From: a virus | IMG/VR virus record: IMGVR_UViG_3300020419_001178 | Location: 1 to 64,000 of that record | Reading direction: 5' to 3' (one strand) | DNA length: 64,000 nt | Shown: positions 1 to 64,000 of the stretch, piece by piece | Numbering within the stretch: position 1 is the first letter of the stretch | Layout of the letters: each line of letters opens with the position of its first letter | Program-made: the position numbers and the translations under genes | The notes under the pieces: generated by a model | What the model was told of the DNA's origin: nothing | Databases searched by the model: none | Seen by the model: the letters and a program-made list of their open reading frames with translations, nothing else

Positions 1-789
1 GCTGACATCACAGGTGAAATAGGCTTTGATGAAAATGCTCAGGTCGTCGACGATGTACTTCACGGCGATGATCCAGAATATTTCGATCCGCAAGAAGCAA
101 CAACAGAGGCTGATATGCAACGTGGTTTGGGAAGTTTAGATAAATTTAGAGAATTATATAGAAAAGGTATTGGTTCAGATGATGATGAAGTAGTTTTACG
201 CGAATTAATAGAAGAAATTAATGATGATGCTTTACAAGATGATTTTCCAAAACTTAAATCTTTTATAAGTGCATCAGAGTATGACGACTCCGATATAGTG
301 GTAGCAAAAGATGTACCTGGAAATAGTGCTGATGAAAAAATTATGTCACTTATAAAAGCAATTGGTGATGATTCATGGGTAGAAGGTTTTGCTCAAAGGT
401 TAACAAAAGATTTTAGCATGAGTGATAACGAAGAACTTGATAGAATTAAAGAACTTGCTGGAGCAAGTATTGACGAAACCTACGACGGTAATGGCTTTGA
501 TGAAGCATATGGTGACATGTGGTATAACGAAGATGAAGACCTAGACGAAGCTGAGTATCAAGGACGTAAAGTTAAACTTGGTAAACCTATGCGAGGAGAT
601 GTCAAAAAATTTAAAGTTTATGTAAAAGACCCAAAAACAAAGAATGTTAAAAAAGTAAACTTTGGTGACCCTGATATGAAAATTAAAAAATCAAATCCAG
701 CACGTAGAAGAAGTTTTCGTGCTAGACACAACTGTGACAATCCAGGACCTAGAACGAAGGCACGTTATTGGTCATGTAGGAAATGGTAA
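1..789 (+). CDS. 5'-truncated modular phage protein (putative internal head protein) with C-terminal basic Cys/His/Trp module seen in marine T4-like phages
   Basis: Frame 1 is open from base 1, so the true start lies upstream. An acidic N-part is followed by the module EAEYQGRKVKLGKP...KKVNFG...RRRSFRARHNC...ARYWSCRKW after LDE. Confidence 0.75.
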   Translation, partial: ADITGEIGFDENAQVVDDVLHGDDPEYFDPQEATTEADMQRGLGSLDKFRELYRKGIGSDDDEVVLRELIEEINDDALQDDFPKLKSFISASEYDDSDIVVAKDVPGNSADEKIMSLIKAIGDDSWVEGFAQRLTKDFSMSDNEELDRIKELAGASIDETYDGNGFDEAYGDMWYNEDEDLDEAEYQGRKVKLGKPMRGDVKKFKVYVKDPKTKNVKKVNFGDPDMKIKKSNPARRRSFRARHNCDNPGPRTKARYWSCRKW

Positions 790-1143
790 ATGAGAATAGA
801 CGAAATACATAATCCGATAGAAGATAAATTGCCATTTGATGTTGTAGATGATGTACATTTCCATCTATTAAATGATGACATGTTTTATAGAAAATATTAT
901 CTTCCTTGTATGGAAAAAATAAGAGCGGAAAAAAATGAAAAAGTGATTCAAGGTCATATGGATCCAATGATCCATAAAGGAATCAATCATTACGTGATCA
1001 AATATAATATTAACAAAACACCTACAGATTTAATGACTCCCGAAGATGTGAAGTCATTGAAGGACAGAGTTTTAGATCACGAAAAAAATCCTCCAAGGGA
1101 GATATCAAGTGCACCTGAGACAATTATTCGAAGCTCAAATTAA
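790..1143 (+). CDS. hypothetical phage protein
   Basis: 117-aa ORF abutting the previous stop (TAAATG); N-terminus MRIDEI. Confidence 0.65.
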   Translation: MRIDEIHNPIEDKLPFDVVDDVHFHLLNDDMFYRKYYLPCMEKIRAEKNEKVIQGHMDPMIHKGINHYVIKYNINKTPTDLMTPEDVKSLKDRVLDHEKNPPREISSAPETIIRSSN

Positions 1144-2053
1144 GACAGCAGTAATTGGTTATGGTAGGATGAATCCTCCTACTATAGGACATGCGGTTTT
1201 AGTCAATGCTATAAATGCAAAAGCAAAACAATATGATGGTGATCCAATGTTGTTTTTAAGCATGACGCAATCTCCTTTTTTGACACCAAAAGGTAAAACA
1301 AACAAACATTTTAAAACAGCAAATATTAAAAATCCATTAGATTGGAAAACAAAACTTGGATATGTTAATAAGTTTTTTGATATTCCTGTTAGCACAGATC
1401 CAAGCCTTAACACCATTATGAGTGTTATGAAATACTTAGAAAACAAAGGCTATGAAAAAGTAGTGCTTGTTTGTGGATCTGATAGAGTCAAAGAATTTGA
1501 AACACAAATATTACCTTACAACAACACACCAGATAAATCAGGAAATATTGCTTACAATATAAAAGAAGTTACTGTTGAACAAGGTGGATTTAGAGACGAA
1601 GAAGCAACCGATGCTAGTGGTATGAGTGCAAGTAAAATGCGTGAAGCGGCCGCACAAGGCGACTTTGAAAGTTTTAAACAAGGTGTTCCAGATCAAAGTG
1701 TAGCACAAAGAATGTTTGATGATGTACGCCGTGGACTTGGCTTCGAACATCAAGACGAAAGTTTAGACGAATACGAAGTAAAGCAACAAAAACCAAAGAT
1801 TGAAGTTTTAAATAATATTGCCGCAAGGAAAGATGGAACAGCTTTTCCTTTAAGTTGGAATGCTGGCAAAGGTGAAATTAAAGTAGGCGGAAAAATGTAC
1901 GTTGACCCTATAACTGCTAACAAGTTTGTGAATTTCTTTGATACAAATAAAGACAAACAAGATGCTATGACACAGGCATTGCGAAGTGCAACTACTACAG
2001 CTAAACTATTTGATGTATTAGGGTTTGATTATACTCTACGAATGGACAAGTAA
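1109..2053 (+). CDS. cytidyltransferase-like (HIGH-superfamily) nucleotidyltransferase with C-terminal extra module
   Basis: GRMNPPTIGH (HxGH-type) motif, VCGSDR and MSASKMR. GTG start preceded by GGGAG. Confidence 0.8.
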   Translation: MHLRQLFEAQIKTAVIGYGRMNPPTIGHAVLVNAINAKAKQYDGDPMLFLSMTQSPFLTPKGKTNKHFKTANIKNPLDWKTKLGYVNKFFDIPVSTDPSLNTIMSVMKYLENKGYEKVVLVCGSDRVKEFETQILPYNNTPDKSGNIAYNIKEVTVEQGGFRDEEATDASGMSASKMREAAAQGDFESFKQGVPDQSVAQRMFDDVRRGLGFEHQDESLDEYEVKQQKPKIEVLNNIAARKDGTAFPLSWNAGKGEIKVGGKMYVDPITANKFVNFFDTNKDKQDAMTQALRSATTTAKLFDVLGFDYTLRMDK

Positions 2054-2265
2054 TGGATATTAAAACTCTTCAGAAACTTGCGGGTATAAATGAATTCAAA
2101 GGATATGAACCAGTCAGTTTAGAAAACCTTAGTCATACAGCAAACGCCCTAAAACAAAAAGAAAAGAAACTTGGTGTAAAGCCTGGTGATCCAGATTGGT
2201 TTAAACTATGGTTTACATTACCATATATGACAGGGCCTGCTCAGTTTAGAGGTAGAAAAAAGTGA
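2053..2265 (+). CDS. small hypothetical phage protein
   Basis: 70-aa ORF coupled to neighbours on both sides; LQKLAGINE N-terminal motif. Confidence 0.7.
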   Translation: MDIKTLQKLAGINEFKGYEPVSLENLSHTANALKQKEKKLGVKPGDPDWFKLWFTLPYMTGPAQFRGRKK

Positions 2266-9585: not shown

Positions 9586-12258
9586 ATGAGTTACGTAGAC
9601 GCATATTTTGACAGGGACTCTGATATTATCAGGGTAGTTGAAAGAAAAGAAGGTAAGAGACTTTATACTGAATACCCGGTCAAATATACATTTTATTATG
9701 ATGACCCTAGAGGTAAACATAAAAGCATATACGGTGATCCTATAAGCCGTATAGTAAGTAAAAGCACAAAAGACTTCCGCAAAGAATTAGCAATAAACAA
9801 CAAACGTAAGTTATTTGAATCCGACATTAATCCTATATTCCAATGTCTAAGTGAAAACTATCTTAATCAAGATGCTCCTAAACCAAATGTAGCATTTTTT
9901 GATATTGAAACTGACTTTGATCCTGAACGTGGATTCGCAGACCCAAGCGATCCGTTTATGCCAATTACTGCTATTACTGTACACTTACAGTGGCTTGATG
10001 CTTTGATAACACTAGCAGTTCCGCCTAAAACACTTACAATGGAACAGGCTAAAGAAGAATGTAAAGAATGGGGACAAGACGTTATCCTTTTTGAAAAAGA
10101 AGGAGATATGTTACAATCGTTCTTAGATATAATTGAAGATAGTGATATTCTTACTGGTTGGAACAGTGAAGGTTATGATATTCCTTATACTGTAAACAGA
10201 GTAAAACGTGTATTAAGCAAAGATGATACAAGACGTTTTTGTTTATGGAAACAACTTCCTAAGAAACGTGAGTATGAGAAGTATGGTAAATCAGCGGAAA
10301 CCTATGACCTAGTAGGTAGAGTACATTTAGATAGTTTAGAATTATATCGTAAATACACATATGAAGAAAGACATACTTACAGACTTGATGCCATTGGAGA
10401 ACTTGAAGTTGGCGAAAAGAAGACTGTTTATGAAGGTACCCTCGATCAACTTTATAACAATGACTTCCGAACGTTCATTGAATACAACAGACAAGATGTT
10501 GCACTACTGGACAAGCTGGACAAAAAACTAAGGTTTATAGATCTTAGTAACGAACTTGCTCATGCGAATACTGTTTTGCTACAGACCACTATGGGTGCTG
10601 TCGCAGTTACAGAACAAGCTATAGTTAACGAAGCACATAGACGTGGTATGCGAGTGCCAAACAGGCCTAAACGTGATCCTGAATCTTCGACGGCGGCTGG
10701 TGCTTATGTTGCTTTTCCTAAAAAAGGATTACATAAATGGATTGGATCAATGGACTTGAATTCACTGTATCCGTCCGTCATTAGAGCACTTAACATGGAT
10801 CCAGCAACCATTGTCGGACAACTCCGTCCAACACTTACTGAAGAATACTTAAATGAAGCAATGAATTTACAGAAAAAATCATTTGCTGGAGCATGGGAAG
10901 GAAAGTTTGGAACTTTAGAATATGAAGCAGTGATGGCAGAAAAACGTGATGTTGCTATTACATTAGACTGGGAAAATGGAAAAGAAGACATTCTTAGTGG
11001 TGCTGAAATATATAAGATGATCTTCGAAAGTAATAAGCCTTGGATGCTATCGTCTAATGGTACAATTTTTACTACAGAGCATGAAGGTATAATTCCTGGA
11101 CTACTTAAACGTTGGTATAGTGAACGTAAAGAGCTACAAGGTCAGCTTAAGAAAGCAAAAGATGCCGATAACAAGATTGAAGTAGAATATTGGGACAAGC
11201 GACAACTTGTTAAAAAAATTAACCTAAATAGTTTGTATGGTGCTATACTTAATCCAGGCTGTAGATTCTTTGATAAACGTATCGGACAGTCTACTACACT
11301 ATCAGGTAGAACTATTGTTAAACACATGTCAGCAGAAGTGAATAAAGTTATTACTGGTACTTATGATCACGTTGGTGATGCTGTCATATACGGAGATACT
11401 GACTCTGTATATTTTAGTGCTTATCCAATTCTTAAAAAAGATATTGACGCTGGTAAGATTCCTTGGTCAAAAGAAAACGTAATTACATTATATGATCAAG
11501 TAGCTGAAGCGGCAAATTCAACATTTGATAAGTTTATGGCTGAAGCATTTCATTGTCCTAAAAGTAGAGCAGAAGTTATTGCGGCAGGTAGAGAAATTGT
11601 TGCTGAAAGCGGATTGTATATTACTAAGAAACGTTATGCGGCATTGGTTTATGATTTGGAAGGTTTTAGAACAGACACAGAAGGTAAGCCTGGAAAAGTA
11701 AAAGCAATGGGCTTAGACTTGCGTAGATCAGATACTCCAGTGTTCATGCAAGACTTCTTAAGTGAACTTTTATTAATGGTGTTAACAGATAAAACTGAAA
11801 AAGAAATACTGAATAGAATTACAGAATTTAGAGCTGACTTTAAGCAACGTCCGGGATACGAGAAAGGATCTCCTAAGAGAGCAAATAAAGTTGGACACTA
11901 TAGAAGGTTAGAAGAAAAACAAGGCAAGGCAAATATGCCCGGACATGTTAGAGCAAGTATCAATTGGAATACACTAAAACGTATGAACGGGGACAAGTAT
12001 TGCCAAGAAATAGTTGACGGTATGAAGGTTATCGTTTGTAAACTGAAACAAAATCCACTAGGATATACAAGTGTTGCTTATCCAACTGATGAATTACGAA
12101 TACCAGATTGGTTTAAAGCACTTCCTTTTGATAATGACGCAATGGAGGAAACAATTATAGATAATAAATTAGATAATCTTATTGGTGTTCTCAATTATCA
12201 TTTAGAAGATACTAAACAACACAATACTTTCAACACACTTTTTGACTTTGGAGAATGA
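9586..12258 (+). CDS. family B DNA polymerase (T4 gp43-like)
   Basis: ExoI FFDIETD, ExoII GWNSEGYD, ExoIII YNRQD; Pol motifs DLNSLYPS, KKINLNSLYG, YGDTDS, KKRY. AGGAG RBS before ATG 9586. Confidence 0.97.
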   Translation: MSYVDAYFDRDSDIIRVVERKEGKRLYTEYPVKYTFYYDDPRGKHKSIYGDPISRIVSKSTKDFRKELAINNKRKLFESDINPIFQCLSENYLNQDAPKPNVAFFDIETDFDPERGFADPSDPFMPITAITVHLQWLDALITLAVPPKTLTMEQAKEECKEWGQDVILFEKEGDMLQSFLDIIEDSDILTGWNSEGYDIPYTVNRVKRVLSKDDTRRFCLWKQLPKKREYEKYGKSAETYDLVGRVHLDSLELYRKYTYEERHTYRLDAIGELEVGEKKTVYEGTLDQLYNNDFRTFIEYNRQDVALLDKLDKKLRFIDLSNELAHANTVLLQTTMGAVAVTEQAIVNEAHRRGMRVPNRPKRDPESSTAAGAYVAFPKKGLHKWIGSMDLNSLYPSVIRALNMDPATIVGQLRPTLTEEYLNEAMNLQKKSFAGAWEGKFGTLEYEAVMAEKRDVAITLDWENGKEDILSGAEIYKMIFESNKPWMLSSNGTIFTTEHEGIIPGLLKRWYSERKELQGQLKKAKDADNKIEVEYWDKRQLVKKINLNSLYGAILNPGCRFFDKRIGQSTTLSGRTIVKHMSAEVNKVITGTYDHVGDAVIYGDTDSVYFSAYPILKKDIDAGKIPWSKENVITLYDQVAEAANSTFDKFMAEAFHCPKSRAEVIAAGREIVAESGLYITKKRYAALVYDLEGFRTDTEGKPGKVKAMGLDLRRSDTPVFMQDFLSELLLMVLTDKTEKEILNRITEFRADFKQRPGYEKGSPKRANKVGHYRRLEEKQGKANMPGHVRASINWNTLKRMNGDKYCQEIVDGMKVIVCKLKQNPLGYTSVAYPTDELRIPDWFKALPFDNDAMEETIIDNKLDNLIGVLNYHLEDTKQHNTFNTLFDFGE

Positions 12259-15905: not shown

Positions 15906-16100
15906 ATGACCGATGATAGATCAGAAGACGCAACATATGAAAATGAGAATAGCACAGTAACAATACCTCTTAAGGAGTACGACAAGTTGAGAGAAAAGCA
16001 AAAGTATATTACAGATAAAGATATGATTTCTGTAGTAGATAAAATTGAAGAACTTGTTAGAGCTTTAAGGAAACACATTGTAAGGACGGACTTAGATTGA
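15906..16100 (+). CDS. small hypothetical protein
   Basis: AGGAG RBS then ATG 15906; VTIPLKEYDKLR. Confidence 0.6.
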   Translation: MTDDRSEDATYENENSTVTIPLKEYDKLREKQKYITDKDMISVVDKIEELVRALRKHIVRTDLD

Positions 16101-43540: not shown

Positions 43541-43554
43541 TATAAATATTTATT
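43541..43554. promoter_or_regulatory. overlapping divergent late-type promoters
   Basis: TATAAATA (+, 43541-43548) and AATAAATA (-, 43547-43554). Confidence 0.65.
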
Positions 43555-43580
43555 GAACGTATGTAAAGGTTTTAGTCAAT

Positions 43581-45340: not shown

Positions 45341-45342
45341 TA

Positions 45343-47103: not shown

Positions 47104-47108
47104 GCTTA

Positions 47109-47156
47109 TATTTACCTGCCAGGCTTTAATGTATTTTATTTTGCGAATAATAAATA
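47109..47156. promoter_or_regulatory. divergent late-type promoters
   Basis: GGTAAATA (-, 47109-47116) and AATAAATA (+, 47149-47156). Confidence 0.55.
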
Positions 47157-47173
47157 TTCAAGTAAGAGTGTAA

Positions 47174-48019
47174 ATGAGAAAACCTATATCATTAAAAGAA
47201 CTTAAAGGTTCACAATACAGAACAGTGGATTTTTATCTTTCAAAATCCTGTAATAAATCGTGCCACTACTGTACTGCTTGGACTCTTGAAATGAGATACC
47301 TACACACAAATATGGATTTGGTGCGTACTATCCTAAAAGGATTATCTCCTTACAAAACAAGAATATGTTTACTTGGAGGAGAACCAGGGCTTATAAAAAA
47401 TCTTGACGAAATAATAGCAGAGATAAAGAAACATGACAATTTGATACCACAGGTATTATCAAATAGTCTAGTTAGAAAATTTTATCCACACATACTTGAA
47501 GACCCTGAAATCATTTATATAGAACATTTAGTATTAGACTTTTATGAAGATAAAATAGAAAAACTAGGCAACTGGCCGTTTTTGCCAAGAAATGATAAAA
47601 ACAATTATAATTTAATAATAGAAACTCCTGGTTATTTCAAATACAGAGATAGATTTGATCTTACAGAAATAGATCACGAAAATACAGAATTTAAAGAATA
47701 TAATTCTAGATCACCTGACTTCCATAGTGATCACGATATAATACAAGCACCAGAGATAGAACGGAGAATATGTGCTAAATTTCCGCAGGTTCCTGTTTTT
47801 GATTTTGAAATACAAAAGATCAGGCACTGCAGTAGGAAAGCAATTGACGGTTCTAGAGAATTTGATATAACTGTAGAAAATATACAAAAAATGATGGAAT
47901 ATAAATTATTTGACTTTGAAAAATATTGTACTACTTGTATGGATATTATTCCTCCTAGACCAGAGGCTAGGAGATTAGAAATACTAGAAAAATTAGCATT
48001 GGAAAAAACACCAGCATGA
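47174..48019 (+). CDS. radical SAM enzyme with C-terminal Cys cluster
   Basis: CNKSCHYC, LLGGEP; C-terminal C...C...CxxC. Confidence 0.8.
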   Translation: MRKPISLKELKGSQYRTVDFYLSKSCNKSCHYCTAWTLEMRYLHTNMDLVRTILKGLSPYKTRICLLGGEPGLIKNLDEIIAEIKKHDNLIPQVLSNSLVRKFYPHILEDPEIIYIEHLVLDFYEDKIEKLGNWPFLPRNDKNNYNLIIETPGYFKYRDRFDLTEIDHENTEFKEYNSRSPDFHSDHDIIQAPEIERRICAKFPQVPVFDFEIQKIRHCSRKAIDGSREFDITVENIQKMMEYKLFDFEKYCTTCMDIIPPRPEARRLEILEKLALEKTPA

Positions 48020-49530
48020 ACATATATTCAGTAGCTTTAAATATTCATGACCATAATACATACGACGGAACATTTCACAACCAAGTTGAGAGACATAACA
48101 GGATTAAACATAATCTAAATTATGAATGGTCACATGACCCTAGTCCTAGTAAAAAATTTTTTAATGAACATGTATTAGACAAATTTAAAAGTAGAGACGA
48201 AAATAATATATTTGCATTCACAGTATCTAACTTAGGCCAAGAATTTGTAACAGATTTAATTGATGAAAACTTTCCAAATAAAGACTTTTTAAAATTTAAA
48301 CCCAAAAGTTTATGGGAACCATTTCATAACGAGTTTGTTTACTACATTGACCATCATCAATCACATGCTACCTATGCCTTTCTTACTTCGGGATATCCAG
48401 AATCTGATATACTTGCTATAGATGGAAGAGGTTGGCAATTTAATTGTATTTTTATAGGAAAAGATGGTATTATAAAAGACCTATCAAAAAAGATTCCTAT
48501 TGGAGGACTATGGAATAGATTAGCTCAAGACATAGGGTTTAAGTATCTTGACGCAGGCAAAGTAATGGGATTAGCAGGATACGGAAAGTATAATTATCAG
48601 ACAGATGCTATGATTGAAACTTATTTAATGAATCCTAATCATACACTACCTAGTTTTGCTACTGAAGTAATTAAAAATAATAAAAGAGAAGATATAGCTT
48701 ATACATTACAGTTTAAAACTATAGAACTTATAAAAAAGTACGTGTATCCACTTAAGACTTGTGATAATATTTGTGTAGCGGGCGGAGTAGCATACAATGG
48801 TTACATGAACGAAGAACTGACAAAGCACTATAAAAATGTACACATTCCTCCAGCTATAGGAGATGAAGGTCAGGCCTTAGGCACTTATATGCATGCCGAC
48901 TATTATCTAAATGATAATATACATAAGCCTAGTGTGTTTTCTGGCAAGGAACATGTTATAGATACAAATCTGTTTACAGGAATGAGCTTTGAAAAATGGC
49001 CATTTGAAAAATTAGTAAGTATGGTAGCAGAAGAAATTGCTAACGGTAAAATAGTAGGATGGTATCAAGGAAAATCTGAAAGTGGAAATAGAGCTTTAGG
49101 TAATAGAAGCATACTAGCCGATCCACGCAATCCTAATATAAAAGATATCATAAACAGTAAAATTAAGAAACGCGAAGACTTTAGACCATTTGCTCCTAGT
49201 GTTTTAGAAGAACATTATCAAGAATATTTTGACACCAGTCAACCTAGTCCATACATGTCTAGAATTATGCCAGTCAAAGTAGATACAGTACCTGGAATTA
49301 CACATGTAGATGGTACTGCTAGAATACAAACAGTGAATAGATCATTCAATAAACGATATTATGACTTAATTACTGCTTTTTATAAACATACAGGAATACC
49401 TATGCTTTTGAACACCAGTTTTAATTGCCAGGAACCTATAGTAGAAACACCAGCAGATGCTTTACGTACTTTTAAAAATTGTGGTTTAGACTTATTAGTA
49501 TTAGGAGATTATTTAATATGGAAGTTATAA
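48016..49530 (+). CDS. carbamoyltransferase (NodU/CmcH family)
   Basis: DHHQSHA, IDGRG, AGKVMGLAGYG, AGGVAYN, GD.G.ALG, RALGNRSILADP, KKREDFRPFAPS, HVDGTARIQ, LNTSFN. Confidence 0.93.
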   Translation: MNIYSVALNIHDHNTYDGTFHNQVERHNRIKHNLNYEWSHDPSPSKKFFNEHVLDKFKSRDENNIFAFTVSNLGQEFVTDLIDENFPNKDFLKFKPKSLWEPFHNEFVYYIDHHQSHATYAFLTSGYPESDILAIDGRGWQFNCIFIGKDGIIKDLSKKIPIGGLWNRLAQDIGFKYLDAGKVMGLAGYGKYNYQTDAMIETYLMNPNHTLPSFATEVIKNNKREDIAYTLQFKTIELIKKYVYPLKTCDNICVAGGVAYNGYMNEELTKHYKNVHIPPAIGDEGQALGTYMHADYYLNDNIHKPSVFSGKEHVIDTNLFTGMSFEKWPFEKLVSMVAEEIANGKIVGWYQGKSESGNRALGNRSILADPRNPNIKDIINSKIKKREDFRPFAPSVLEEHYQEYFDTSQPSPYMSRIMPVKVDTVPGITHVDGTARIQTVNRSFNKRYYDLITAFYKHTGIPMLLNTSFNCQEPIVETPADALRTFKNCGLDLLVLGDYLIWKL

Positions 49531-50162
49531 ATGAAAACTATTGGAAAGTATGGTGGGAAGCTATACAACACAGTCATGAGATAAAAGATATACTTTACAG
49601 CGTTGGTCCTGATCAAATGGATTCAAAAGTTCATCTTGTTGATAGTATTCCGTTAGATGAAATGAAAAAGTTTAACGATTTAAAAATACACTTATATGGT
49701 GGTTGGTATGGATATCCTCTAATTAATCTTTTACTTAATAAATTTTTAAATATAGAACATATAACAAATATAGACTTAGACGAAAAAGCATTAGATCTAT
49801 CAAGAAAATACACCCACGCTATGAGCTTAGAGAACAAAGTCTTTTTTAAACACAGAGATGTTAAAGATAAAATAGAAACATCTTACTATAAAGACAAAGA
49901 TGTAAGATTAGTTATTAATACATCAAGCGAACACATGGCAGATCTGCCTGATTTAATAGCAAATAAAGATTACACTCCTAATTGTGTATTTGCTTTACAA
50001 AGTAATAATATGTTTCATGTAAAAGATCAACATATAAACTGTTCAAATAATTTAGATGAATTCGTAAGTAAAACTGGGCTTACTAAGATATGGTTTGCTG
50101 ACACTTACAAAATGTCAAACGGATATGAAAGATATACTGTTATTGGCAATCATCGAACTTAG
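49518..50162 (+). CDS. putative SAM-dependent methyltransferase-like protein
   Basis: LYGGWYG, NIDLD, VINTSSEH, LQSNN, H.NC. Confidence 0.6.
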   Translation: MEVINENYWKVWWEAIQHSHEIKDILYSVGPDQMDSKVHLVDSIPLDEMKKFNDLKIHLYGGWYGYPLINLLLNKFLNIEHITNIDLDEKALDLSRKYTHAMSLENKVFFKHRDVKDKIETSYYKDKDVRLVINTSSEHMADLPDLIANKDYTPNCVFALQSNNMFHVKDQHINCSNNLDEFVSKTGLTKIWFADTYKMSNGYERYTVIGNHRT

Positions 50163-50829
50163 ATTTTAACCAATCAAAATCATTTATTAACCGAAGATCA
50201 GACCCCCTAGAAAAGCCAAACTCCATACCAGCATTAGCACCTCGAATCGCATCTTCACGAAATCTTCCATTACCTGTTGTGGTCCATACTTTAAGTCTTT
50301 CATTAGTTTCTCCTTCTTGTTGTCTATCTATCACTTTACTACTTAATTTAGCACATTCTCTAAAAGCACTTTTCCATGTATTAAATGAATCAGTATCGAA
50401 AGCTGTTATGTTACTTACTTGATCAAATACAATGAAGTTGTCTGAAATGCTTGTTGTCATATCATAACTGTTTACATCCATATTCTTTGTTAAGTTTGTT
50501 GGAAGTAACTTGACTCCACCGTAACCATAAGTAAGATTGTTTACAGGATTCATACTTTTGTATACATGAACAATATTTTCAATTTTTGAAGTTACAAAAT
50601 AATTAAACATAAAGTCTTCTGTAATTACTGCGTCACCATCTACTACAAAAAAATATCTTGTATTAGCTTTTTTAGCCGCTTCTATATGAGCTTTGTGTAT
50701 TCCTTTAACCCCGTCTATCCTTTTAACTCTATCTCCAAAAACTCCTGACGTATTAAATCTATTATACAAATCATTATAATTTTTATCTGCGTGAGGCTCG
50801 TTATAACTTATAAAAACTATATCATGCAT
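50140..50829 (-). CDS. GT-A-like glycosyltransferase
   Basis: DIVFISYNEP, GVKGIH.AH, VVDGD (DxD), YGYGGVKL, WKSAFREC.KL. Confidence 0.7.
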   Translation of the reverse strand: MHDIVFISYNEPHADKNYNDLYNRFNTSGVFGDRVKRIDGVKGIHKAHIEAAKKANTRYFFVVDGDAVITEDFMFNYFVTSKIENIVHVYKSMNPVNNLTYGYGGVKLLPTNLTKNMDVNSYDMTTSISDNFIVFDQVSNITAFDTDSFNTWKSAFRECAKLSSKVIDRQQEGETNERLKVWTTTGNGRFREDAIRGANAGMEFGFSRGSDLRLINDFDWLKSKFDDCQ

Positions 50830-52186
50830 TTTTTATTTCCTTGTAAAATTCTTTGTATTCTGGAAATGTTTTTACAAAATTTAGATCTCTTCTTTTGTCA
50901 TATTCATTAACAAATTTGTAAAACAACTTTTGTGATTGTCTTTGCTCTTCTTTAAATTCTTTGTTTTTAAATCTATACAAAACGTCAGCTATAATTCTTT
51001 TTAGCTTGGCTGTTTCTATATCTCCAAAGCCACCAAGATTAGTATTTTCAATCATAAAATCTACTGCTGGAATTAAATGTGTTTTAACCAATTCTTCACT
51101 TGCTACTTTTACATCTAAAAATCCAGGATTACGCACATACGGAATATCAACCTTTATTCTATGATCTTCTCGGTGTTTCCTATAATATGTAGTTTTAAGA
51201 TGTAATATCCAGATTAAAAAATTTTTAAATGTTGGTAAACTTAAAATATTAAAGGCACTCATAAAGCTGATTCTACTGTTTGTATTCCTAGCAAAATATT
51301 CAATATTATCCTTAAACAAATACCAATCCATACCATAACGACTATATTCTGCTTGAGCTCCACTGCTTTCCGCACTTGTAAATAACGTAAACTGTTTAAT
51401 ACTTTTTTTATTTTCTAATTCATTAATACTTTTAGTAAATTTTTTCCATAAATCTTTTGGAGGACATCCATTAGAATTAATAGCAAAATCCAAATGCGGT
51501 TGTGGATTTTCAATCAAATAATTAATAACCTTTTGTGTATGCTTACTCAACAATGGTTCACCACCTGTGATCCTAAAAACTTTCATATGTTTTACTGCTT
51601 CAGGAAACCATTTCCAAAATGCTTCTATATAAGGATTGTGTTCTCTTTCGAGTATTTGTACTTCTTCAGGATCTATAGCATTATATTTCCATATTCCTAA
51701 ATCGTAATGTCCTTCTTGTTTTACTTCTTCTGCCCATTTACTGCTAAAGGCAGGCCCACAGTAAGAACATTTAAAATTACATACATTGCTAAAACTTATT
51801 TCAACATATCTAGGATAAAAGTCTTCATGACCTGTTGAGTTAGAGATACTATCAAAATCATCCCAACTAAAGTGATCAGCACTTTTGTATATTCTATCAC
51901 TAAATTTATCGGTGTTATCTTCAATTCTCCAACAGTAATCACATTCCTCAGGACGTTCATTATTGAGCATTCTACGTCTTGTATTTTTTTTAAACTCTGT
52001 ATTATGTAAAACGTTTGGATTATTTTTTAAATCATCTAAAGGAATCTTGTGAGCTTTGACATGATGACAACTATGGTTTATTCCTGACCCTAAGTGTATG
52101 GTTACCTGTGTCCATTTTGCTAAACAAAATCCACAACCTACTTCATTAAGTTTATCTTTTACTTCAGCCGGATTAGCTCTTATCAT
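50822..52186 (-). CDS. radical SAM enzyme with N-terminal SPASM/twitch-like Cys domain
   Basis: CLAKW..SCHH..CDYCW, then CNFKCSYC, ITGGEP, INSN. Confidence 0.85.
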   Translation of the reverse strand: MIRANPAEVKDKLNEVGCGFCLAKWTQVTIHLGSGINHSCHHVKAHKIPLDDLKNNPNVLHNTEFKKNTRRRMLNNERPEECDYCWRIEDNTDKFSDRIYKSADHFSWDDFDSISNSTGHEDFYPRYVEISFSNVCNFKCSYCGPAFSSKWAEEVKQEGHYDLGIWKYNAIDPEEVQILEREHNPYIEAFWKWFPEAVKHMKVFRITGGEPLLSKHTQKVINYLIENPQPHLDFAINSNGCPPKDLWKKFTKSINELENKKSIKQFTLFTSAESSGAQAEYSRYGMDWYLFKDNIEYFARNTNSRISFMSAFNILSLPTFKNFLIWILHLKTTYYRKHREDHRIKVDIPYVRNPGFLDVKVASEELVKTHLIPAVDFMIENTNLGGFGDIETAKLKRIIADVLYRFKNKEFKEEQRQSQKLFYKFVNEYDKRRDLNFVKTFPEYKEFYKEIKNA

Positions 52187-53082
52187 GATATAAATGATCT
52201 ACCATAATTTTGATTGACAGTTTTAAAAAATGTGCTTTGTTCTTCGTTTAACTGTAATACAGAAATAGGTAGCTGTAGTTGATTTATCAATTCAGTTCCT
52301 AAATTCCATATTTCGTTGTGTAGAATATCACCAGGTAACTCATCTCGGTTACCCCAAATTTCTTCTAAATGGTCGAAGTCTCTTACATTTATATAATCCC
52401 AGTCTGTGAGTAATGTCATTTGTAAGCCTTCTCTTGCTCCGTATATTGCCCAATCTCCGTTTTCAACATCACTACCAACCATAGTCCAGATGTAAAGCAT
52501 GTTTAAGTTCTTTGGATGACCTTGTAAAAATTGTTCATGTGTAGGTCTTACTCCTCTATCTGTAGCTAATTTTACTCCTTCTCTAAATCCTGCTCTCCAT
52601 GCTTGTTTAGGAGTAGTGTTGTTATGTGTCAAACTAAAACAGCTATTCTGTTGGATATATCGTGCGTCCCAACAAAAATCTACCTTAGCATGGATATTAT
52701 CAGGATCAGCATTTTCATGTGTTTTCATGTTTAGAACATATTCTTTAGGCCAGCACTTTAGACCTCCGTTTCCATACATCAGTCCATTAATAACATTTTT
52801 GCCACACCAGCTTATAACACTATTAGACAAGTTTTCATTCTCTTCAAGGTCTATTACTTGATCTAAAAATTCTTGCTTTATAGTATTATCGCCATCTACA
52901 GTTATAAATCTATCAGTTTCACTTAATTTAGCACAGGCTTTATGTGCCGCATCGGACCCTTTTATCCCATGTACACGTTTGGCCCAAGGAACCTTGGTCA
53001 ATAAGTCTGCGTAATTTTTTTCAGCATTTGGTTCATCATAACTTAAAAAAATTATATCTAGTTCTGCTATTTTAATTTTCAT
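52183..53082 (-). CDS. GT-A-like glycosyltransferase (paralogue of 50140-50829)
   Basis: DIIFLSYDEP, GIKGSDAAH, TVDGD, YGNGGLKCW, AWRAGFREG.KL. Confidence 0.7.
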   Translation of the reverse strand: MKIKIAELDIIFLSYDEPNAEKNYADLLTKVPWAKRVHGIKGSDAAHKACAKLSETDRFITVDGDNTIKQEFLDQVIDLEENENLSNSVISWCGKNVINGLMYGNGGLKCWPKEYVLNMKTHENADPDNIHAKVDFCWDARYIQQNSCFSLTHNNTTPKQAWRAGFREGVKLATDRGVRPTHEQFLQGHPKNLNMLYIWTMVGSDVENGDWAIYGAREGLQMTLLTDWDYINVRDFDHLEEIWGNRDELPGDILHNEIWNLGTELINQLQLPISVLQLNEEQSTFFKTVNQNYGRSFIS

Positions 53083-53249
53083 AAATCACCTCTTATCACA
53101 CTATCTCCAAACATTAAATATATTAACGTTTCGTATTTTTCGTCTATTTCAACCCATAATTCTCCTACGAATTCATTTGTAAAAGCTCTACAAGGAAATG
53201 CTTTTTGAATTCCGTAATATGGTCCAAGATGTTTACAAATAATTTTCAT
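53079..53249 (-). CDS. 56-aa hypothetical protein (not in ORF track)
   Basis: MKIICKHLGPYYGIQKAFPCRAFTNEFVGELWVEIDEKYETLIYLMFGDSVIRGDL*; fills the gap and is ATGA-coupled to the next gene. Confidence 0.5.
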   Translation of the reverse strand: MKIICKHLGPYYGIQKAFPCRAFTNEFVGELWVEIDEKYETLIYLMFGDSVIRGDL

Positions 53250-53760
53250 TAGTTTCTCTGGTTACACAATCAGCGAATACATTTTTTGTATATACGCTGT
53301 AAGTTTCAATGTTATTGAAAGGAAACATTTCTTTTGATCCTATCTTAAAAGTAAAAGTATTTAACAAGTAATGTGGGTCTCCTTTTTTTGTAACATAAAA
53401 AGTTATTTCATTTAAGTTCTTTGGTGTGTCTAATGTTTTAACATAACACTTGTTCCTACTTCTATCAACAACAAATTCTATGTCATGGAATTCATCTTTG
53501 GGTTTATATAATTCATTAAGCAAAAAAGTCTGTTGTTCTTGATCAACATTTTTCTTTAATTCAAAGGATTTATTTCTTTTATTATACTGGACTGCCCAAT
53601 TTATAAAATTCTCTTTAAGCGTTTGAAATGGTTTAGCTTGATCATCAGTAATTTCAATATGTTCATAATTAGAATTAATATTAGGACCTATACTAAAAAT
53701 TTCTCCGCTTTCCTTATTGAAGCAAACGTATTGTTGTGTTTTCACTTTGATATCAGCCAT
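53233..53760 (-). CDS. hypothetical protein
   Basis: 175 aa, FYVTKKGDPH motif. Confidence 0.65.
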   Translation of the reverse strand: MADIKVKTQQYVCFNKESGEIFSIGPNINSNYEHIEITDDQAKPFQTLKENFINWAVQYNKRNKSFELKKNVDQEQQTFLLNELYKPKDEFHDIEFVVDRSRNKCYVKTLDTPKNLNEITFYVTKKGDPHYLLNTFTFKIGSKEMFPFNNIETYSVYTKNVFADCVTRETNENYL

Positions 53761-54553
53761 ATGCTTTTTCTAACCTTTCACAAAAGCTATTTTCAGTATA
53801 ATGTAATATTCCATGTTGTAAATAGTTACCTATCTTAAGTTGCTTATCATTGTTAAAATAATAGGGTATAGATTCAGTCCAATCTTGTTGTGCTACTTGC
53901 CAATCCTGTACTTGCGACTTCATATGAACAAAACTTGCGGGAGCAAATATATAATTTTCTATATTCTCGTCTAATAAAGTAATGGCATGATTAAGATCCA
54001 TACTGCTAACCTTAGGAGTTAGTTTCGGAGTATATATTTTGTAATAATCTTTATAATTTCTACAAACATGTTCTAGTTTTAAGTAATATTTCAAAGCTAC
54101 ATCATTTTGTTGGAAGTAATGAAAAGCACAGTATACATTAGGAATATTATTTTCAACAAATGTTTTCCTATAATAGTTGTTTGTTACTAATTTGTTTTTA
54201 TATGTTCTAACATTACTTGTAAAACATACGTCATAATTACTCAAATAATTCCACCAATGGCTAATATCGCTTAAGAATAGCATGTCCGTATCTAGTAATA
54301 CTGTTTCTTTGTAAGGTGTACTGTGAAAAGCCTTCCATCTAATATCTGTTCTATAAAAATCAACTTTATTTCTATCCGAAATTGGAATATCTATAATTTT
54401 ATCAAATACATCCGTATATTCATCTGGAACCTTATCTCCAGTTAGTAGAGAAACATTGTTAATTGTTTGGGTATGTTTAATACTTTTAGCACAAAGGTAA
54501 GCCTGTTTTATATATTCAGTACCTGTCGCTATAATTATATAACCTTTAGACAT
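53753..54553 (-). CDS. GT8-like glycosyltransferase
   Basis: KGYIIIA, TPYKETVLLDTDML (DxD), FVHMK. Confidence 0.72.
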   Translation of the reverse strand: MSKGYIIIATGTEYIKQAYLCAKSIKHTQTINNVSLLTGDKVPDEYTDVFDKIIDIPISDRNKVDFYRTDIRWKAFHSTPYKETVLLDTDMLFLSDISHWWNYLSNYDVCFTSNVRTYKNKLVTNNYYRKTFVENNIPNVYCAFHYFQQNDVALKYYLKLEHVCRNYKDYYKIYTPKLTPKVSSMDLNHAITLLDENIENYIFAPASFVHMKSQVQDWQVAQQDWTESIPYYFNNDKQLKIGNYLQHGILHYTENSFCERLEKAYG

Positions 54554-55376
54554 TCAAATGTCTTTCCAAACTAAACTTATTCATCACATGAATATTCATA
54601 TCTTTGACAGTAGATAGTATGTACTCATTTGTTATATTTTGTTTTTGCGTCAAAAATGTTAAAGTGTCATCTTTAATCTTATGTAATACATCTCTATCTA
54701 ATGTGTAATACATTTTTCCAGGTAGTGACTTTGTCCAGGAACCTTCTTCAAATCCATTCATAATGTGTATACCTATACTAAAAAGATGATCATTTCTAAA
54801 ATTGCGACTTCCTAAATCGTACACATCACTATAGTATTTCCAATTATCGTAAAGATGTTTTAACAGATCAAAAAATATCTTGTTTTCTTTACTCTTAGTA
54901 AAATAAAAACAAGTAGCCCAATAGAAAGGAATTCCTTTATCGTTTATATAATCAAATTCACTGTAGTTTCTCCATTGGCATAAGTCTACTCCGTGTTTGT
55001 AAATCTGAAAATCATAATCTAAGTCAAAAGCATGTTTAAAATTATCATTACAAATTATATAATCTGTATCTAATACTAATGTTTTGTCATATGGGCTTAG
55101 ATAATACGCATTATGTCTTTCGTTATTTTTAAAATGTAGGCTTTGAGAATAACCAAACCCGTCATTATATCGTTTTTGATTATCCTGTGCGTCATTTATT
55201 GTTATAATTTTATCAAAGACATCGTGATACTGTAAATCTATTTTATCAAATGTAGATGTTACTAAAGACACAGGTAAATTTAAATGCCTTTTTGAACGAT
55301 AGGCAAGTTCTATTGCTTGTTTTATATAATCAATAGAACCATTATTGTTAGCAAAACAGATAATTCCATTAGACAT
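54546..55376 (-). CDS. GT8-like glycosyltransferase (paralogue)
   Basis: SPYDKTLVLDTDY, WAT.FYF, FRND, HVMNK. Confidence 0.72.
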   Translation of the reverse strand: MSNGIICFANNNGSIDYIKQAIELAYRSKRHLNLPVSLVTSTFDKIDLQYHDVFDKIITINDAQDNQKRYNDGFGYSQSLHFKNNERHNAYYLSPYDKTLVLDTDYIICNDNFKHAFDLDYDFQIYKHGVDLCQWRNYSEFDYINDKGIPFYWATCFYFTKSKENKIFFDLLKHLYDNWKYYSDVYDLGSRNFRNDHLFSIGIHIMNGFEEGSWTKSLPGKMYYTLDRDVLHKIKDDTLTFLTQKQNITNEYILSTVKDMNIHVMNKFSLERHLNV

Positions 55377-55713
55377 CTACTAAACCTTTTACACTACGTC
55401 TAGTACTAAGAATCTTATAATCTTCGTTATACTGATTTGTTGCTTCAGTGTATTTCTGAATCAATGCCTCAGTAAAATCATTAAGGTCATTAATCTCAAT
55501 AGGAGTTTGGTTATCATCAACTATAATAGTTTTAGTAGTTTTATTTAAAAGCATAGAACAGAAGTTTAACATCTCTCTGTTTGCTGTAAACGTTCCACCA
55601 AGATAGTAAATAATTAGGTTTTCTTGATACTTTTCGGACAGAATTCTCTTTTGATTATTCAGTGTTACAGAATAATTCGAAAACTCTAACGCTTTTTCAA
55701 GAGATTCTTCCAT
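55369..55713 (-). CDS. conserved hypothetical phage protein
   Basis: AGGAG RBS with ATTAAATA box at 55740-55747; 114 aa. Confidence 0.7.
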   Translation of the reverse strand: MEESLEKALEFSNYSVTLNNQKRILSEKYQENLIIYYLGGTFTANREMLNFCSMLLNKTTKTIIVDDNQTPIEINDLNDFTEALIQKYTEATNQYNEDYKILSTRRSVKGLVDV

Positions 55714-62112: not shown

Positions 62113-62723
62113 TATTCATTAAATCCTGTCAAGCTCTGTACTCTGACTGTGTAGTCAATTTGTACTAATCTATTTAAACTTTTTTGTACTGGGTGGAAGA
62201 CCACATGCGTAAGTAATCTACCTGTTCCTGATGCGTTGTAACTGACCAGTCCTAGTTCGTCAAATACATACAAACTATTACTATTCGTAGCATTATCAAC
62301 AGCATCTTGTCCTGTTGGTTCACCATAGTCAAGTAAACATGTAACTAATATGTCTGTGTAGTTTGTTCCGCTAACATGTCTTGATTCTATCTTGTTTCTA
62401 GCAGGATCAGTGTTATTAACACTTCTATCATCTACTACTTTAACAAAAGTTTGATTATAAAGACTAGCATTTGTACCTGTGGAATTTGGTGTAAGGTATG
62501 TAATTATACCTGTTGGGTCAATGCTTGTACCACCATTTCCAAATGCCATCTGATATATGAACCCTTCGCCTGCGTTTCCTAAACTTTCAGCTAATGAAAT
62601 ACTCATATTCTCATAATGGATAGCATTACGCTTATCAACAATAATCTCACCATTTGTTGGGTCAAATATCTTGATATGCCCTTGTAAAAGCACCCCGTTA
62701 TTTTCTTTAAAATTGTCTATCAT
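62112..62723 (-). CDS. conserved virion structural (baseplate/tail) protein
   Basis: GHIKI.D, NAIH, FGNGG, LDYGEP, FDELGL, HV.FHPVQKSLNR; AATAAATA box at 62742-62749. Confidence 0.7.
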   Translation of the reverse strand: MIDNFKENNGVLLQGHIKIFDPTNGEIIVDKRNAIHYENMSISLAESLGNAGEGFIYQMAFGNGGTSIDPTGIITYLTPNSTGTNASLYNQTFVKVVDDRSVNNTDPARNKIESRHVSGTNYTDILVTCLLDYGEPTGQDAVDNATNSNSLYVFDELGLVSYNASGTGRLLTHVVFHPVQKSLNRLVQIDYTVRVQSLTGFNE

Positions 62724-62744
62724 ATCACTTTCCTACAACTGTAT

Positions 62745-64000
62745 TTATTTTGGTAGCTCCACCTTTTCCGCCTTAAAGAAACGTGCTACCAAACTTTCCG
62801 CATCATTTAAGGATTGTCCGCTTTCTGTCCATAGTGTACCTGTACGCCTAATGACTTGTATTTTAGCTAAATTTGCCGGTGTAGTGGTCAAAGTAAGCTG
62901 ATTTGTAGTGCCATCAACACTAAATTGAGCAGGTGATGTTATATCTGCTTCAGGTGAATCCTGATTTAGTGTAACATCGAACATCTGTATACTATTTTTT
63001 CTTAATCTTTTTCCAGCAACAAAAACTTCAAACTCATTTACTGAGCTAGGAATAAAGGATAATTCAAAAATACTTGTAGAACCGTCACCTACATAGTCTT
63101 CAGTCAATGTAGTATCTGCATATGGTGCTGTTTGCTGTAATCCTTGATTATATACGTCACTACCTGTAAGGTGTACCTCTGGCGCACCTGTTCCAAGTGT
63201 TGCTCTTTGAATTTGTTTCAATACATTACCTTGTTTAATTAAGAATGTTATTCTTTCTCCGTTAATGAATAAGATACCTGGTATTCCGCTATTTTTATCC
63301 GGAGCACTAATTGTAGTAGCATCAACTAGCAAGATTTGTTTATCTGTGACTTTTAAATCTTCAGCAAGTTTCAACGGAGCAACATCACCTAATCTTTTAT
63401 AGATATTTCTATTTAATATATCCTTAAATTGACTAAAGCCAAATTTAGGTGCTATAGGTCCATCTGAACTGTATTGTATTACTTCTACTACATCGTTGTC
63501 TGATAAAATACCTTCATACTTAACAAAGTTTTTATCATCTGTCAAGTAGTAGTCAACACTAGGAGTTTGTAGTTCTCCGTTAACAATAAACCAAATATAT
63601 TGAGCATCAATAGCAGGCTTACGTAATTGTACTAATCCTGCCTTTAAGTGATTGTATTGTATATGGTCTTCGCTTCCAACACTTAAGGTTGATCTTGCTA
63701 TGACATCAAAGTTTTGTCTTTCAAAATCCTGAATATCGTGTTTGCTATATGTAGTGATTTTTACTGTTTCTCCAATAGTAGGCGCAACATCTAGTTTCAG
63801 CACACCTGGTGTTTCTACCCAAGTATTTTGATTGTTAATTACTTCAACTGCTCCAAAAGCATATTCACCATCTGTTCTAATATACACTTCTAAAATATCG
63901 CCTGGTTGTCCTATTCCAGGTTCAAGTATAATACTACTATTAGCTGGACGTATATTAAATTCTGTAGCAATTTTTAATTCAGTTCCGTTTAATGTTGCTA
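62745..64000 (-). CDS. large virion structural protein, C-terminal part (starts beyond the window)
   Basis: Frame is open to base 64000; beta-rich repeats (V..NG, GDGST..F.L, EVFVAG). Confidence 0.75.
   Translation of the reverse strand, partial: ATLNGTELKIATEFNIRPANSSIILEPGIGQPGDILEVYIRTDGEYAFGAVEVINNQNTWVETPGVLKLDVAPTIGETVKITTYSKHDIQDFERQNFDVIARSTLSVGSEDHIQYNHLKAGLVQLRKPAIDAQYIWFIVNGELQTPSVDYYLTDDKNFVKYEGILSDNDVVEVIQYSSDGPIAPKFGFSQFKDILNRNIYKRLGDVAPLKLAEDLKVTDKQILLVDATTISAPDKNSGIPGILFINGERITFLIKQGNVLKQIQRATLGTGAPEVHLTGSDVYNQGLQQTAPYADTTLTEDYVGDGSTSIFELSFIPSSVNEFEVFVAGKRLRKNSIQMFDVTLNQDSPEADITSPAQFSVDGTTNQLTLTTTPANLAKIQVIRRTGTLWTESGQSLNDAESLVARFFKAEKVELPK

What the first reader, a model, noticed from the sequence alone, without database searches (positions are those of the whole stretch)
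1..64000. Strong apparent avoidance of GCWGC, visible as forced GCG/GCC codons in Ala-Ala pairs
Seen: in this AT-rich genome Ala is normally GCA/GCT, yet every Ala-Ala I checked (more than 40, both strands, all blocks; e.g. near 1645, 2343, 3588, 11581, 22533, 28697, 45801, 56601) starts with GCG or GCC, even creating GCGGCCGC. I found no GCAGC or GCTGC, although I did not count exhaustively. Known: GCWGC is the TseI/ApeKI-type site. Inference: long-term selection by a host GCWGC restriction system that the deazaguanine modification does not block. It also shows the island is long-resident in the same host range, and gives a host-prediction handle.
Basis: partly seen in the sequence, partly recalled or inferred. 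Interest (0 to 1): 0.7.

Follow-up and report, generated by a model that had tools for sequence, protein, structure and literature searches.

The report
Unshieldable restriction sites purged from phage
This fragment of an abundant, uncultured marine giant phage has removed every copy of the DNA word GCWGC (and most TGCA) by silent recoding, most likely because these restriction-enzyme targets contain no guanine that the phage's own DNA modification can protect.

Summary
GCWGC occurs 0 times in the 64-kb window and 0 times in the whole 145.7-kb contig. A codon-preserving shuffle expects 54 and 126±6. All 140 Ala-Ala pairs start with GCG or GCC, and the site is also avoided silently in the other two reading frames, so this is not a base-calling artefact.

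TGCA is depleted 5.7-fold. Relatives from many independent metagenomes show graded GCWGC loss (ratio 0 to 0.7, never 1). Different sub-lineages lack other words as well, such as TGCA, GTGCAC, GTWAC and GCGC.

About a dozen other palindromes are purged only in copies that have no G followed by A or G. These include GCGC, CGCG, CAATTG, CATATG and AAGCTT. This points to a protective mark on 5'-GR-3' guanines, like the GA/GGC specificity of phage CAjan's DpdA. GCWGC and TGCA contain no such G, so they must be deleted outright.

A conserved ORF (16097-17557) has a tRNA-guanine transglycosylase fold and a DSGGFQ motif, and it sits beside FolE and QueE-like genes.

The host, the restriction enzymes and the modified base were not observed. 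This scan has already reported the same flank-conditional purge on other marine phage DNA. What is new here is the unconditional GCWGC loss, the recent TGCA purge and the decaying "fossil" bias in relaxed relatives.

The parts
1..64000 (.). Stretch with no GCWGC at all and 5.4-fold fewer TGCA than expected. It is part of a 145.7-kb contig with the same properties.
   Evidence: Window: GCWGC 0 against 54.0 expected; TGCA 41 against 221.6; unflanked GCGC 0 against 18.2; seven terminal-G palindromes in the Y+Y context 2 against 51.2.
1646..1653 (+). Example of forced recoding: GCGGCCGC made by consecutive Ala codons. The same word is at 3588-3595 and 22534-22541.
16097..17557 (+). Conserved 486-aa ORF, a divergent tRNA-guanine-transglycosylase (TGT/DpdA-like) fold. 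It is the candidate enzyme that places the protective base.
   Evidence: No Pfam, PHROG, NCBIfam or PDB-sequence hit. It has 982 homologues. Alignment A1 shows invariant D101, S102, G104 and D294, and Q106 is nearly invariant (>=90%); the motif reads LLGDSGGFQ. The AF2 model has pLDDT 92.7. The Foldseek top 50 are all Z. mobilis TGT, probability 1.0.
23388..24161 (+). GTP cyclohydrolase I (FolE), the first step of 7-deazaguanine synthesis.
   Evidence: PF01227, E = 5.7e-37.
24494..25396 (+). QueE-like radical-SAM enzyme (7-carboxy-7-deazaguanine synthase type).
   Evidence: phrog_2076, E = 2e-53. NCBIfam QueE models match at 8e-11 but below their cut-offs.
9586..12258 (+). Family-B DNA polymerase, used as the marker to collect and order relatives. 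The true start is the ATG at 9586, not the TTG at 9556.
33525..55713 (.). Biosynthetic island, largely absent from the 335-kb relative but purged like the rest of the contig.
   Evidence: no C57 counterparts for most ORFs between 33.5 and 47 kb. GCWGC 0 against 8.9 expected; TGCA 12 against 61.8; unflanked GCGC 0 against 5.8; terminal-G Y+Y 1 against 16.4.

Best explanation
The contig is a fragment of an abundant, uncultured marine jumbo phage of about 335-350 kb. Its DNA is exposed to many sequence-specific host nucleases, most simply Type II restriction enzymes.

The phage appears to defend itself in two layers. First, a post-replicative guanine modification marks G in 5'-GR-3' contexts and shields any site that contains such a G or abuts one. 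This is probably a 7-deazaguanine derivative inserted by the divergent TGT/DpdA-like enzyme at 16097-17557, with FolE and QueE-like genes beside it. Second, sites that cannot be shielded are removed from the genome by selection on silent changes.

In GCWGC (TseI/ApeKI type, or BbvI GCAGC) and TGCA (HpyCH4V/CviRI type) every G is followed by C, so these sites can never be shielded and are purged outright. That is why every Ala-Ala pair is written GCG-GCN or GCC-GCN.

What is shown: the statistics, the silent routes, the flank rule, the distribution among relatives, and the TGT fold. What is inferred: that restriction enzymes are the selecting agent, that the shield is a base modification, and what that modification is chemically.
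For: (a) Depletion against a protein- and codon-preserving null. GCWGC is 0 against 126.3 +/- 5.9 expected, and TGCA is 93 against 525.

(b) Removal is silent in all three frames. For TGCA, 28 of the 93 survivors are ATG-CAN (Met-His or Met-Gln), which no silent change can remove.

(c) Independent lineages fixed the same ancestral TGCA columns by different substitutions, for example TAGCAA against TTGCTA and ATGCGA against ACGCAA. So the word itself is selected against, not one mutational path.

(d) Comparative pattern. Of 43 loci, 27 have ratio 0, 4 have 0.06-0.09, 1 has 0.27 and 11 have 0.35-0.70. On the PolB tree the GCWGC state changes at least 6 times and the TGCA state at least 4 times. 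Other lineages lack other restriction-type words: GTGCAC 2 against 64 in the 335-kb relative, GTWAC 0 against 30 in L019, GCAGT 2 against 24-28 in L069/72/73, and GCGC in several.

(e) Flank rule. On this contig GCGC is 0 against 47.9 when unflanked but 43 against 55.4 as GGCGC or GCGCC. Pooled over CAATTG, CATATG, CTTAAG, CAGCTG, CGCG, CASTG and CTWAG, copies whose terminal G is followed by C or T on both strands are 6 against 130.8, while every class with a G followed by A or G is at 0.76-1.09. As a control, in the relative C57 three of these words (CATATG, CASTG, CTWAG) are not purged and their Y+Y class is at expectation.

(f) Precedent. CAjan's DpdA modifies GA and GGC. Enzymes with those contexts in their site are blocked, while NsiI (ATGCAT, which contains TGCA) still cuts (PMC7544227).

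(g) A TGT-fold enzyme with the DSGGFQ motif sits beside FolE and QueE-like genes.

(h) No C5, N4/N6 or Dam-type methyltransferase is found on the contig.
Against: No host is known, and no cognate restriction enzyme or methylome was found. The four bacterial or archaeal bins that hold related contigs belong to discordant phyla and look like mis-binning.

The modification is inferred from sequence statistics only. The TGT-like ORF matches no DpdA or TGT sequence family, QueC was not found, and QueD was not identified.

GCGC is protected by a G just outside the site, but on this contig GCWGC is not (flanked copies 0 against 26.3). In the 335-kb relative flanked GCWGC copies survive at 0.34. That difference is unexplained.

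GCWGC avoidance spread over a whole phage clade is broader than one would expect from patchily distributed restriction systems.

Only 41% of the genome is in hand, so a phage methyltransferase or nuclease could lie elsewhere.
Confidence: 0.72

Rival explanations
1. Self-avoidance of a phage-borne nuclease. The phage, or the whole lineage, would carry its own GCWGC-specific and/or TGCA-specific endonuclease without a methylase, use it to destroy host or competitor DNA, and stay safe by having no sites.
For: The purge is absolute and unconditional here and in 35 related loci (flanked copies 0 against 82.8 expected, unflanked 0 against 313). It is clade-wide, which fits a vertically inherited phage gene better than patchy host systems do. 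Five ORFs specific to this contig are still unannotated.
Against: Among the ORFs that this contig has and the TGCA-tolerant 335-kb relative lacks, the ten examined (outside most of the biosynthetic island) gave no nuclease, methyltransferase or PADLOC restriction model. The annotated ones are DoxX, SufE, DUF6445, a 2OG oxygenase and a halogenase. A dozen further words are purged under the same flank rule, which would need a dozen phage nucleases. Relaxed lineages re-gain GCWGC gradually (ratio 0.35-0.70), as expected after a host shift.
Confidence: 0.08
2. The selecting agent is another motif-reading host defence or DNA-binding factor (for example Type I/III, BREX/DISARM-like, or Dnd/Ssp-like) rather than classical Type II restriction enzymes.
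For: The agent was never observed. Some lineage-specific missing words are asymmetric, for example GCAGT in L069/72/73 and CATCC in L077. GCAGC itself could be read as an asymmetric word.
Against: Most purged words are 4-6-bp palindromes or quasi-palindromes that are established Type II sites. GCWGC is TseI/ApeKI per PMC3643589 and PMC8557920. That GCGC is HhaI, CAATTG MfeI, CATATG NdeI and AAGCTT HindIII is from my own knowledge. Both orientations are removed equally, unlike the strand-biased avoidance expected for Type III.
Confidence: 0.1
3. A mutational or technical cause: deamination of methylated GCWGC, context-specific mutagenesis, or systematic base-calling or assembly error at a modified motif that converts GCWGC to GCSGC.
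For: GCSGC is 3.5-fold in excess (173 against 50), roughly matching the missing GCWGC.
Against: The excess GCSGC is almost all in the Ala-Ala frame, with 140 there and only 2 in the frame where W-to-S would turn Gln into Arg or Leu into Pro. Deamination products would be non-synonymous in the Ala-Ala frame. In the other frames the site is avoided by choosing CAA, TTA or AGT, not by W-to-S. The same pattern appears in dozens of contigs assembled independently from different metagenomes.
Confidence: 0.02

Closest known systems
Restriction-site (short palindrome) avoidance in virulent dsDNA phages (classical literature and surveys, recalled from my own knowledge; the concept is confirmed in papers listed)
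   Same: Strong under-representation of Type II recognition words, achieved by silent changes, specific to each lineage, with no cognate methylase in the phage.
   Different: For most words the avoidance here depends on context: only copies with no G followed by A or G are removed. GCWGC is removed completely (0 of about 126 expected). Its loss is shared in graded form by a whole abundant marine clade, including lineages where the bias is decaying.
7-Deazaguanine DNA modification by DpdA in phages, for example CAjan (preQ0 at GA and GGC; PMC7544227), iggy (GA only; PMC10484667) and the DpdA1-4 subfamilies (PMC10516641)
   Same: A TGT-fold enzyme with the DSGGFQ motif sits next to FolE and QueE-like genes. 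The protective context inferred here (G followed by A or G) nearly matches CAjan's GA/GGC. Sites whose G lies in a GC context stay unprotected, as shown for NsiI on CAjan DNA.
   Different: The enzyme matches no TGT or DpdA sequence family (Pfam, NCBIfam, PHROG and a PDB profile all negative). GG appears to protect with or without a following C. QueC was not found. The base itself and its presence in the DNA are unobserved.
GCWGC restriction-modification systems: TseI (PMC3643589), ApeKI (PMC8557920), M.AbaBS3I of freshwater Chloroflexi (PMC6329791); BbvI GCAGC (from my own knowledge)
   Same: The missing word is exactly their recognition sequence.
   Different: No such system was linked to a host of this phage. 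In the marine methylome survey GCWGC modification was seen only in one Chloroflexi bin (PMC8919816).

Membership tests
Restriction-site avoidance in phage genomes | The word is under-represented against a null that keeps composition, proteins and codon usage. | tested here: met
   GCWGC 0 against 126.3 +/- 5.9 and TGCA 93 against 525 by synonymous shuffle. The Markov expectation for GCWGC is 138.
Restriction-site avoidance in phage genomes | The word is a recognition sequence of known restriction enzymes. | tested here: met
   TseI G^CWGC (PMC3643589) and the ApeKI methyltransferase GCWGC (PMC8557920), both listed. That TGCA is the HpyCH4V/CviRI site is from my own knowledge.
Restriction-site avoidance in phage genomes | Removal by silent substitutions, in all frames and on both strands. 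| tested here: met
Restriction-site avoidance in phage genomes | The host carries the cognate restriction system. | not testable with these tools
   The host is unknown. Related contigs sit in bins of four discordant phyla. No REBASE or methylome data for candidate hosts is available.
Restriction-site avoidance in phage genomes | The phage lacks a cognate protective methyltransferase. | tested here: inconclusive
   PF00145, PF01555 and PF02086 give no match on the contig, but the contig is only 41% of the genome.
Phage DpdA / 7-deazaguanine DNA modification system | A TGT-superfamily transglycosylase with catalytic Asp residues. | tested here: met
   Met by fold and motif only. The Foldseek top 50 are all TGT (probability 1.0, TM about 0.5). 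D101, S102, G104 and D294 are invariant and Q106 is nearly invariant. Sequence families are negative.
Phage DpdA / 7-deazaguanine DNA modification system | Deazaguanine biosynthesis genes (FolE, QueD, QueE, and QueC for preQ0). | tested here: inconclusive
   FolE is clear and a QueE-like gene is clear by PHROG. QueD and QueC were not identified among the ORFs scanned, and the contig is incomplete.
Phage DpdA / 7-deazaguanine DNA modification system | The modified base is present in virion DNA at defined motifs. | not testable with these tools
   There is only the indirect footprint: sites with a G followed by A or G are spared.

The most novel reading that the evidence does not exclude
The pattern of which restriction words are missing, and in which flanking contexts, reads out two things from sequence alone for an uncultured and very abundant marine jumbo-phage clade. 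One is the sequence specificity (5'-GR-3') of a guanine modification made by a previously unclassified TGT/DpdA-like family. The other is the restriction repertoire of its unknown hosts, with at least 14 specificities. The sub-lineage differences would then trace host shifts, and the unconditional, clade-wide loss of GCWGC would mark a nuclease that ignores an adjacent modified G.
Probability: 0.55. Interest if true: 0.7.

Novelty: new variant of a known kind. Interest (0 to 1): 0.55.

Why it matters
If this reading is right, plain k-mer statistics with flank classes can predict both the motif of a phage DNA hypermodification and the restriction systems of hosts nobody has cultured. That gives testable links between abundant ocean viruses and their hosts.

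It also shows how the two anti-restriction strategies divide the work. Modification covers what it can reach, and recoding covers the rest, at a visible cost in codon choice: every Ala-Ala pair is forced into rare codons.

The decaying bias in relaxed lineages offers a molecular clock for host shifts.

Tried and rejected
(1) Base-calling or assembly artefact (W to S). Rejected by the frame distribution and by many independent assemblies.

(2) Near-DNA match to cultured phages. None found. The closest polymerases are jumbo phages at 42-50% identity.

(3) Host hints from genome bins. PolB relatives lie in bins of Thermoplasmata, Neomarinimicrobiota, Methanobacteriota and Crocinitomicaceae. These are discordant, so I treated them as mis-binning.

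(4) Marine methylome papers. GCWGC appears only in Chloroflexi bins. Neither TGCA nor GCWGC appears in PMC9516812.

(5) Counting GCWGC in whole related records with the genome search.

(6) My first codon alignment of PolB was shifted by one codon, because a stop upstream of the true start had been dropped. I redid it.

(7) Sequence-family tests for DpdA (Pfam, PHROG, NCBIfam, PDB sequence and profile). All negative. Only the fold and the motif identify the protein.

(8) Are the TGCA-richer regions (1-9 kb and 102-106 kb) recent recombinational imports? Inconclusive. All sampled relatives are 70-85% identical there and none is an obvious donor.

(9) Literature search for context-conditional avoidance linked to deazaguanine. 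Nothing on the topic is in the held library.
Full report
**Observation.** The window has no GCAGC and no GCTGC, against 70 GCSGC. The same holds for the whole 145,741-bp contig the window comes from: 0 against 173. Expected GCWGC in the contig is 91 from base composition and 138 from a maximal-order Markov model. It is 126.3 +/- 5.9 (minimum 105) from 200 shuffles that keep every protein and each gene's codon usage. For the window alone the shuffle expects 54.0. All 140 Ala-Ala pairs in the contig, 63 of them in the window and on both strands, begin with GCG or GCC. Ala followed by anything else is 87% GCA/GCT. The site is also avoided silently in the other two frames: none of 21 G-Gln-C contexts uses CAG, none of 49 G-Leu-C contexts uses CTG, and there is no NGC-AGC or NGC-TGC pair.

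**What the DNA is.** The contig is an IMG/VR metagenomic record, linear, rated 41% complete by CheckV. It encodes a family-B polymerase closest (42-50%) to jumbo phages. It has no near-DNA match among cultured phages. The polymerase has at least 597 relatives in IMG/VR. One relative, with 83% PolB identity, is a 335,231-bp contig filed in a Neomarinimicrobiota bin, and this contig is collinear with positions 119-270 kb of it.

**Not an artefact and not a mutational bias.** A systematic W-to-S miscall would create Arg and Pro codons (G-CGG-C, G-CCG-C). Only 2 GCSGC lie in that frame, against 140 in the Ala-Ala frame. The pattern recurs in dozens of contigs assembled from different samples. Deamination of a methylated site would be non-synonymous in the Ala-Ala frame and cannot give complete loss.

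**A second purge.** An unbiased scan of all 4-6-mers puts GCWGC and TGCA far ahead of every other word. TGCA is 93 against 525 expected (0.18). Of the 93 survivors, 28 are ATG-CAN (Met-His or Met-Gln), which no silent change can remove, and 65 are free. So the TGCA purge is strong but unfinished. The survivors are denser at 1-12 kb and at 102-106 kb of the contig. I could not show that these regions are recombinational imports.

**Relatives.** With the codon-preserving null, all 43 related loci of at least 9 kb are GCWGC-depleted. Ratios are 0 in 27 loci, 0.06-0.09 in 4, 0.27 in 1 and 0.35-0.70 in 11; none is near 1. In the high-ratio loci Ala-Ala still starts with GCS about half the time, against about 10% for other Ala codons. 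That is a fossil of a GCWGC-free ancestor now decaying.

TGCA is at 0.92-1.27 everywhere except a few sub-lineages: this phage with L003 and L011, the L001-L006 group, and L079. On the PolB tree the GCWGC state needs at least 6 changes and the TGCA state at least 4.

The closest relatives are only 84% identical in nucleotides, with 62% identity at third positions, so there has been ample time for these changes. TGCA-free lineages removed the same ancestral sites by different silent routes, and L062 and L008 are mosaics. Other lineages lack other restriction-type words: GTGCAC is 2 against 64 in the 335-kb relative, GTWAC is 0 against 30 in L019, GCAGT is 2 against 24-28 in L069/72/73, GCGC is low in several, and CATCC is low in L077. 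This is what an arms race with diverse, changing restriction systems should leave behind.

**The flank rule.** Earlier notes of this scan, on other marine phage DNA, reported that GCWGC survives only as GGCWGC or GCWGCC, and that only copies lacking a G followed by A or G are purged. I tested this here.

- In the 335-kb relative all 35 surviving GCWGC are GGCWGC or GCWGCC, against 31% of control GCSGC sites with that flank.
- On this contig GCGC is 0 against 47.9 when unflanked but 43 against 55.4 as GGCGC or GCGCC. GCTAGC (0 of 11.2 unflanked), GAGCTC and GTGCAC behave alike.
- I split every 4-6-mer into copies with and without a G followed by A or G, within the site plus or minus one base. 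In the unshieldable class GCGC, CGCG, AAGCTT, CATATG and CAATTG have zero copies, and CASTG and CTWAG nearly zero. In the shieldable class only words containing TGCA or GCWGC are depleted.
- Pooled over seven palindromes that end in G, copies whose terminal G is followed by C or T on both strands are 6 against 130.8. Every class with a G followed by A, by GC, or by G plus a non-C base is at 0.76-1.09.
- Internal control: in the relative, CATATG, CASTG and CTWAG are not purged, and their C/T-flanked class is at expectation. So the effect is not a codon artefact.
- The rule holds across the clade, even in lineages relaxed for GCWGC: CGCG 0 against 40.9 and CTTAAG 0 against 15.1 in the unshieldable class.

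**Interpretation.** One common factor that spares more than ten different sites whenever a G is followed by a purine is most simply a modification of the phage's own DNA at 5'-GR-3'. This nearly matches the published specificity of phage CAjan's DpdA. There, preQ0 sits at GA and GGC, enzymes with those contexts in their site are blocked, and BcuI, BstEII and NsiI (ATGCAT, which contains TGCA) still cut (PMC7544227). In GCWGC and TGCA every G is followed by C on both strands, so they cannot be shielded and must be deleted. That explains the forced GCG/GCC codons.

The candidate enzyme is the 486-aa ORF at 16097-17557. It has no hit in Pfam, PHROGs, NCBIfam or PDB sequences. It does have 982 homologues, an invariant DSGG and a nearly invariant Q in a DSGGFQ motif plus an invariant Asp-294, and a confident model (pLDDT 92.7). 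The 50 best structural matches of that model are all tRNA-guanine transglycosylase. FolE and a QueE-like gene lie just downstream. The cluster is shared with the 335-kb relative. Divergent DpdA subfamilies that are invisible to simple sequence searches have precedent (PMC10516641).

**What stays open.**
- The flanking G protects GCGC here but not GCWGC. Flanked GCWGC is 0 against 26.3 on this contig and 0 against 82.8 in 35 related loci, but 0.34 in the 335-kb relative.
- The clade-wide reach of GCWGC avoidance is broader than patchy restriction systems would suggest. I therefore tested the rival that the phage carries its own nuclease. Among the ORFs present here but absent from the TGCA-tolerant relative, I scanned the ten outside most of the biosynthetic island. 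The annotated ones are DoxX, SufE, DUF6445, a 2OG oxygenase and a halogenase, five are unknown, and none matches a PADLOC restriction model. No methyltransferase is on the contig. With 59% of the genome missing, this rival is weakened but not excluded.
- The host is unknown. Bins holding related contigs are taxonomically discordant. Marine and lake methylome surveys report GCWGC modification only in Chloroflexi bins.

**The island.** The 33.5-55.7 kb biosynthetic island is mostly absent from the 335-kb relative, yet it is purged like the rest of the contig: GCWGC 0 against 8.9, TGCA 12 against 61.8, unflanked GCGC 0 against 5.8. So it is long-resident, or it came from a genome under the same regime.

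**Verdict.** As a kind, restriction-site avoidance is classical. The context-conditional form, which exposes a modification motif, was already noted by this scan on other marine phage DNA, and I did not find it in the held literature. Specific to this case are the unconditional GCWGC loss, the young and still unfinished TGCA purge, and the graded fossil bias among relatives.

Noticed in passing
window 9556-9586: The listed TTG start of the polymerase ORF (9556) is an over-extension. Relatives have a stop codon just upstream, and the conserved start is the ATG at 9586 (MSYVDAY...).
   Followed up: yes
window 10500-10503: One free TGCA (GTT-GCA, inside PolB) is retained in all 14 close relatives compared, including every TGCA-purged lineage. 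The reason is unknown.
   Followed up: partly
window 1-12000 and contig 102000-106000 (capsid region): Residual TGCA sites cluster here at about 40-60% of expectation, against about 10% elsewhere. A test for recent recombinational import was inconclusive.
   Followed up: partly
L088-L104 (G001:C57, 335,231 bp): A probably near-complete jumbo-phage genome is filed inside a Neomarinimicrobiota MAG. Shorter relatives sit in Thermoplasmata, Methanobacteriota and Crocinitomicaceae MAGs. This is likely mis-binning. C57 lacks GTGCAC (2 against 64 expected) and unshielded CTGCAG, CTTAAG and CAGCTG.
   Followed up: partly
L019; L069, L072, L073; L077; L043, L064-L067: Lineage-specific missing words: GTWAC 0 against 30; GCAGT/ACTGC 2 against 24-28; CATCC 2 against 17; GCGC 0-3 against 9-16.
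   Followed up: partly
L062 and L008 (PolB gene): PolB is a mosaic, with a 5' part carrying normal TGCA density and a 3' part matching the TGCA-purged clade. This is evidence of recombination between lineages under different purge regimes.
   Followed up: partly
contig 92605-93009, 134203-137319; window 12387-12896: ORFs with no counterpart in the 335-kb relative include SufE, DoxX, DUF6445, a 2OG-Fe(II) oxygenase and a tryptophan-halogenase-like flavoenzyme.
   Followed up: partly
contig-wide: CCGCGG-type contexts (CGCG followed by GC on both strands) are several-fold over-represented: 2 against 0.1 expected for CGCG here and 9 against 0.6 in C57. This is probably a by-product of the GCC-GCG-GCN recoding of alanine runs.
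   Followed up: no
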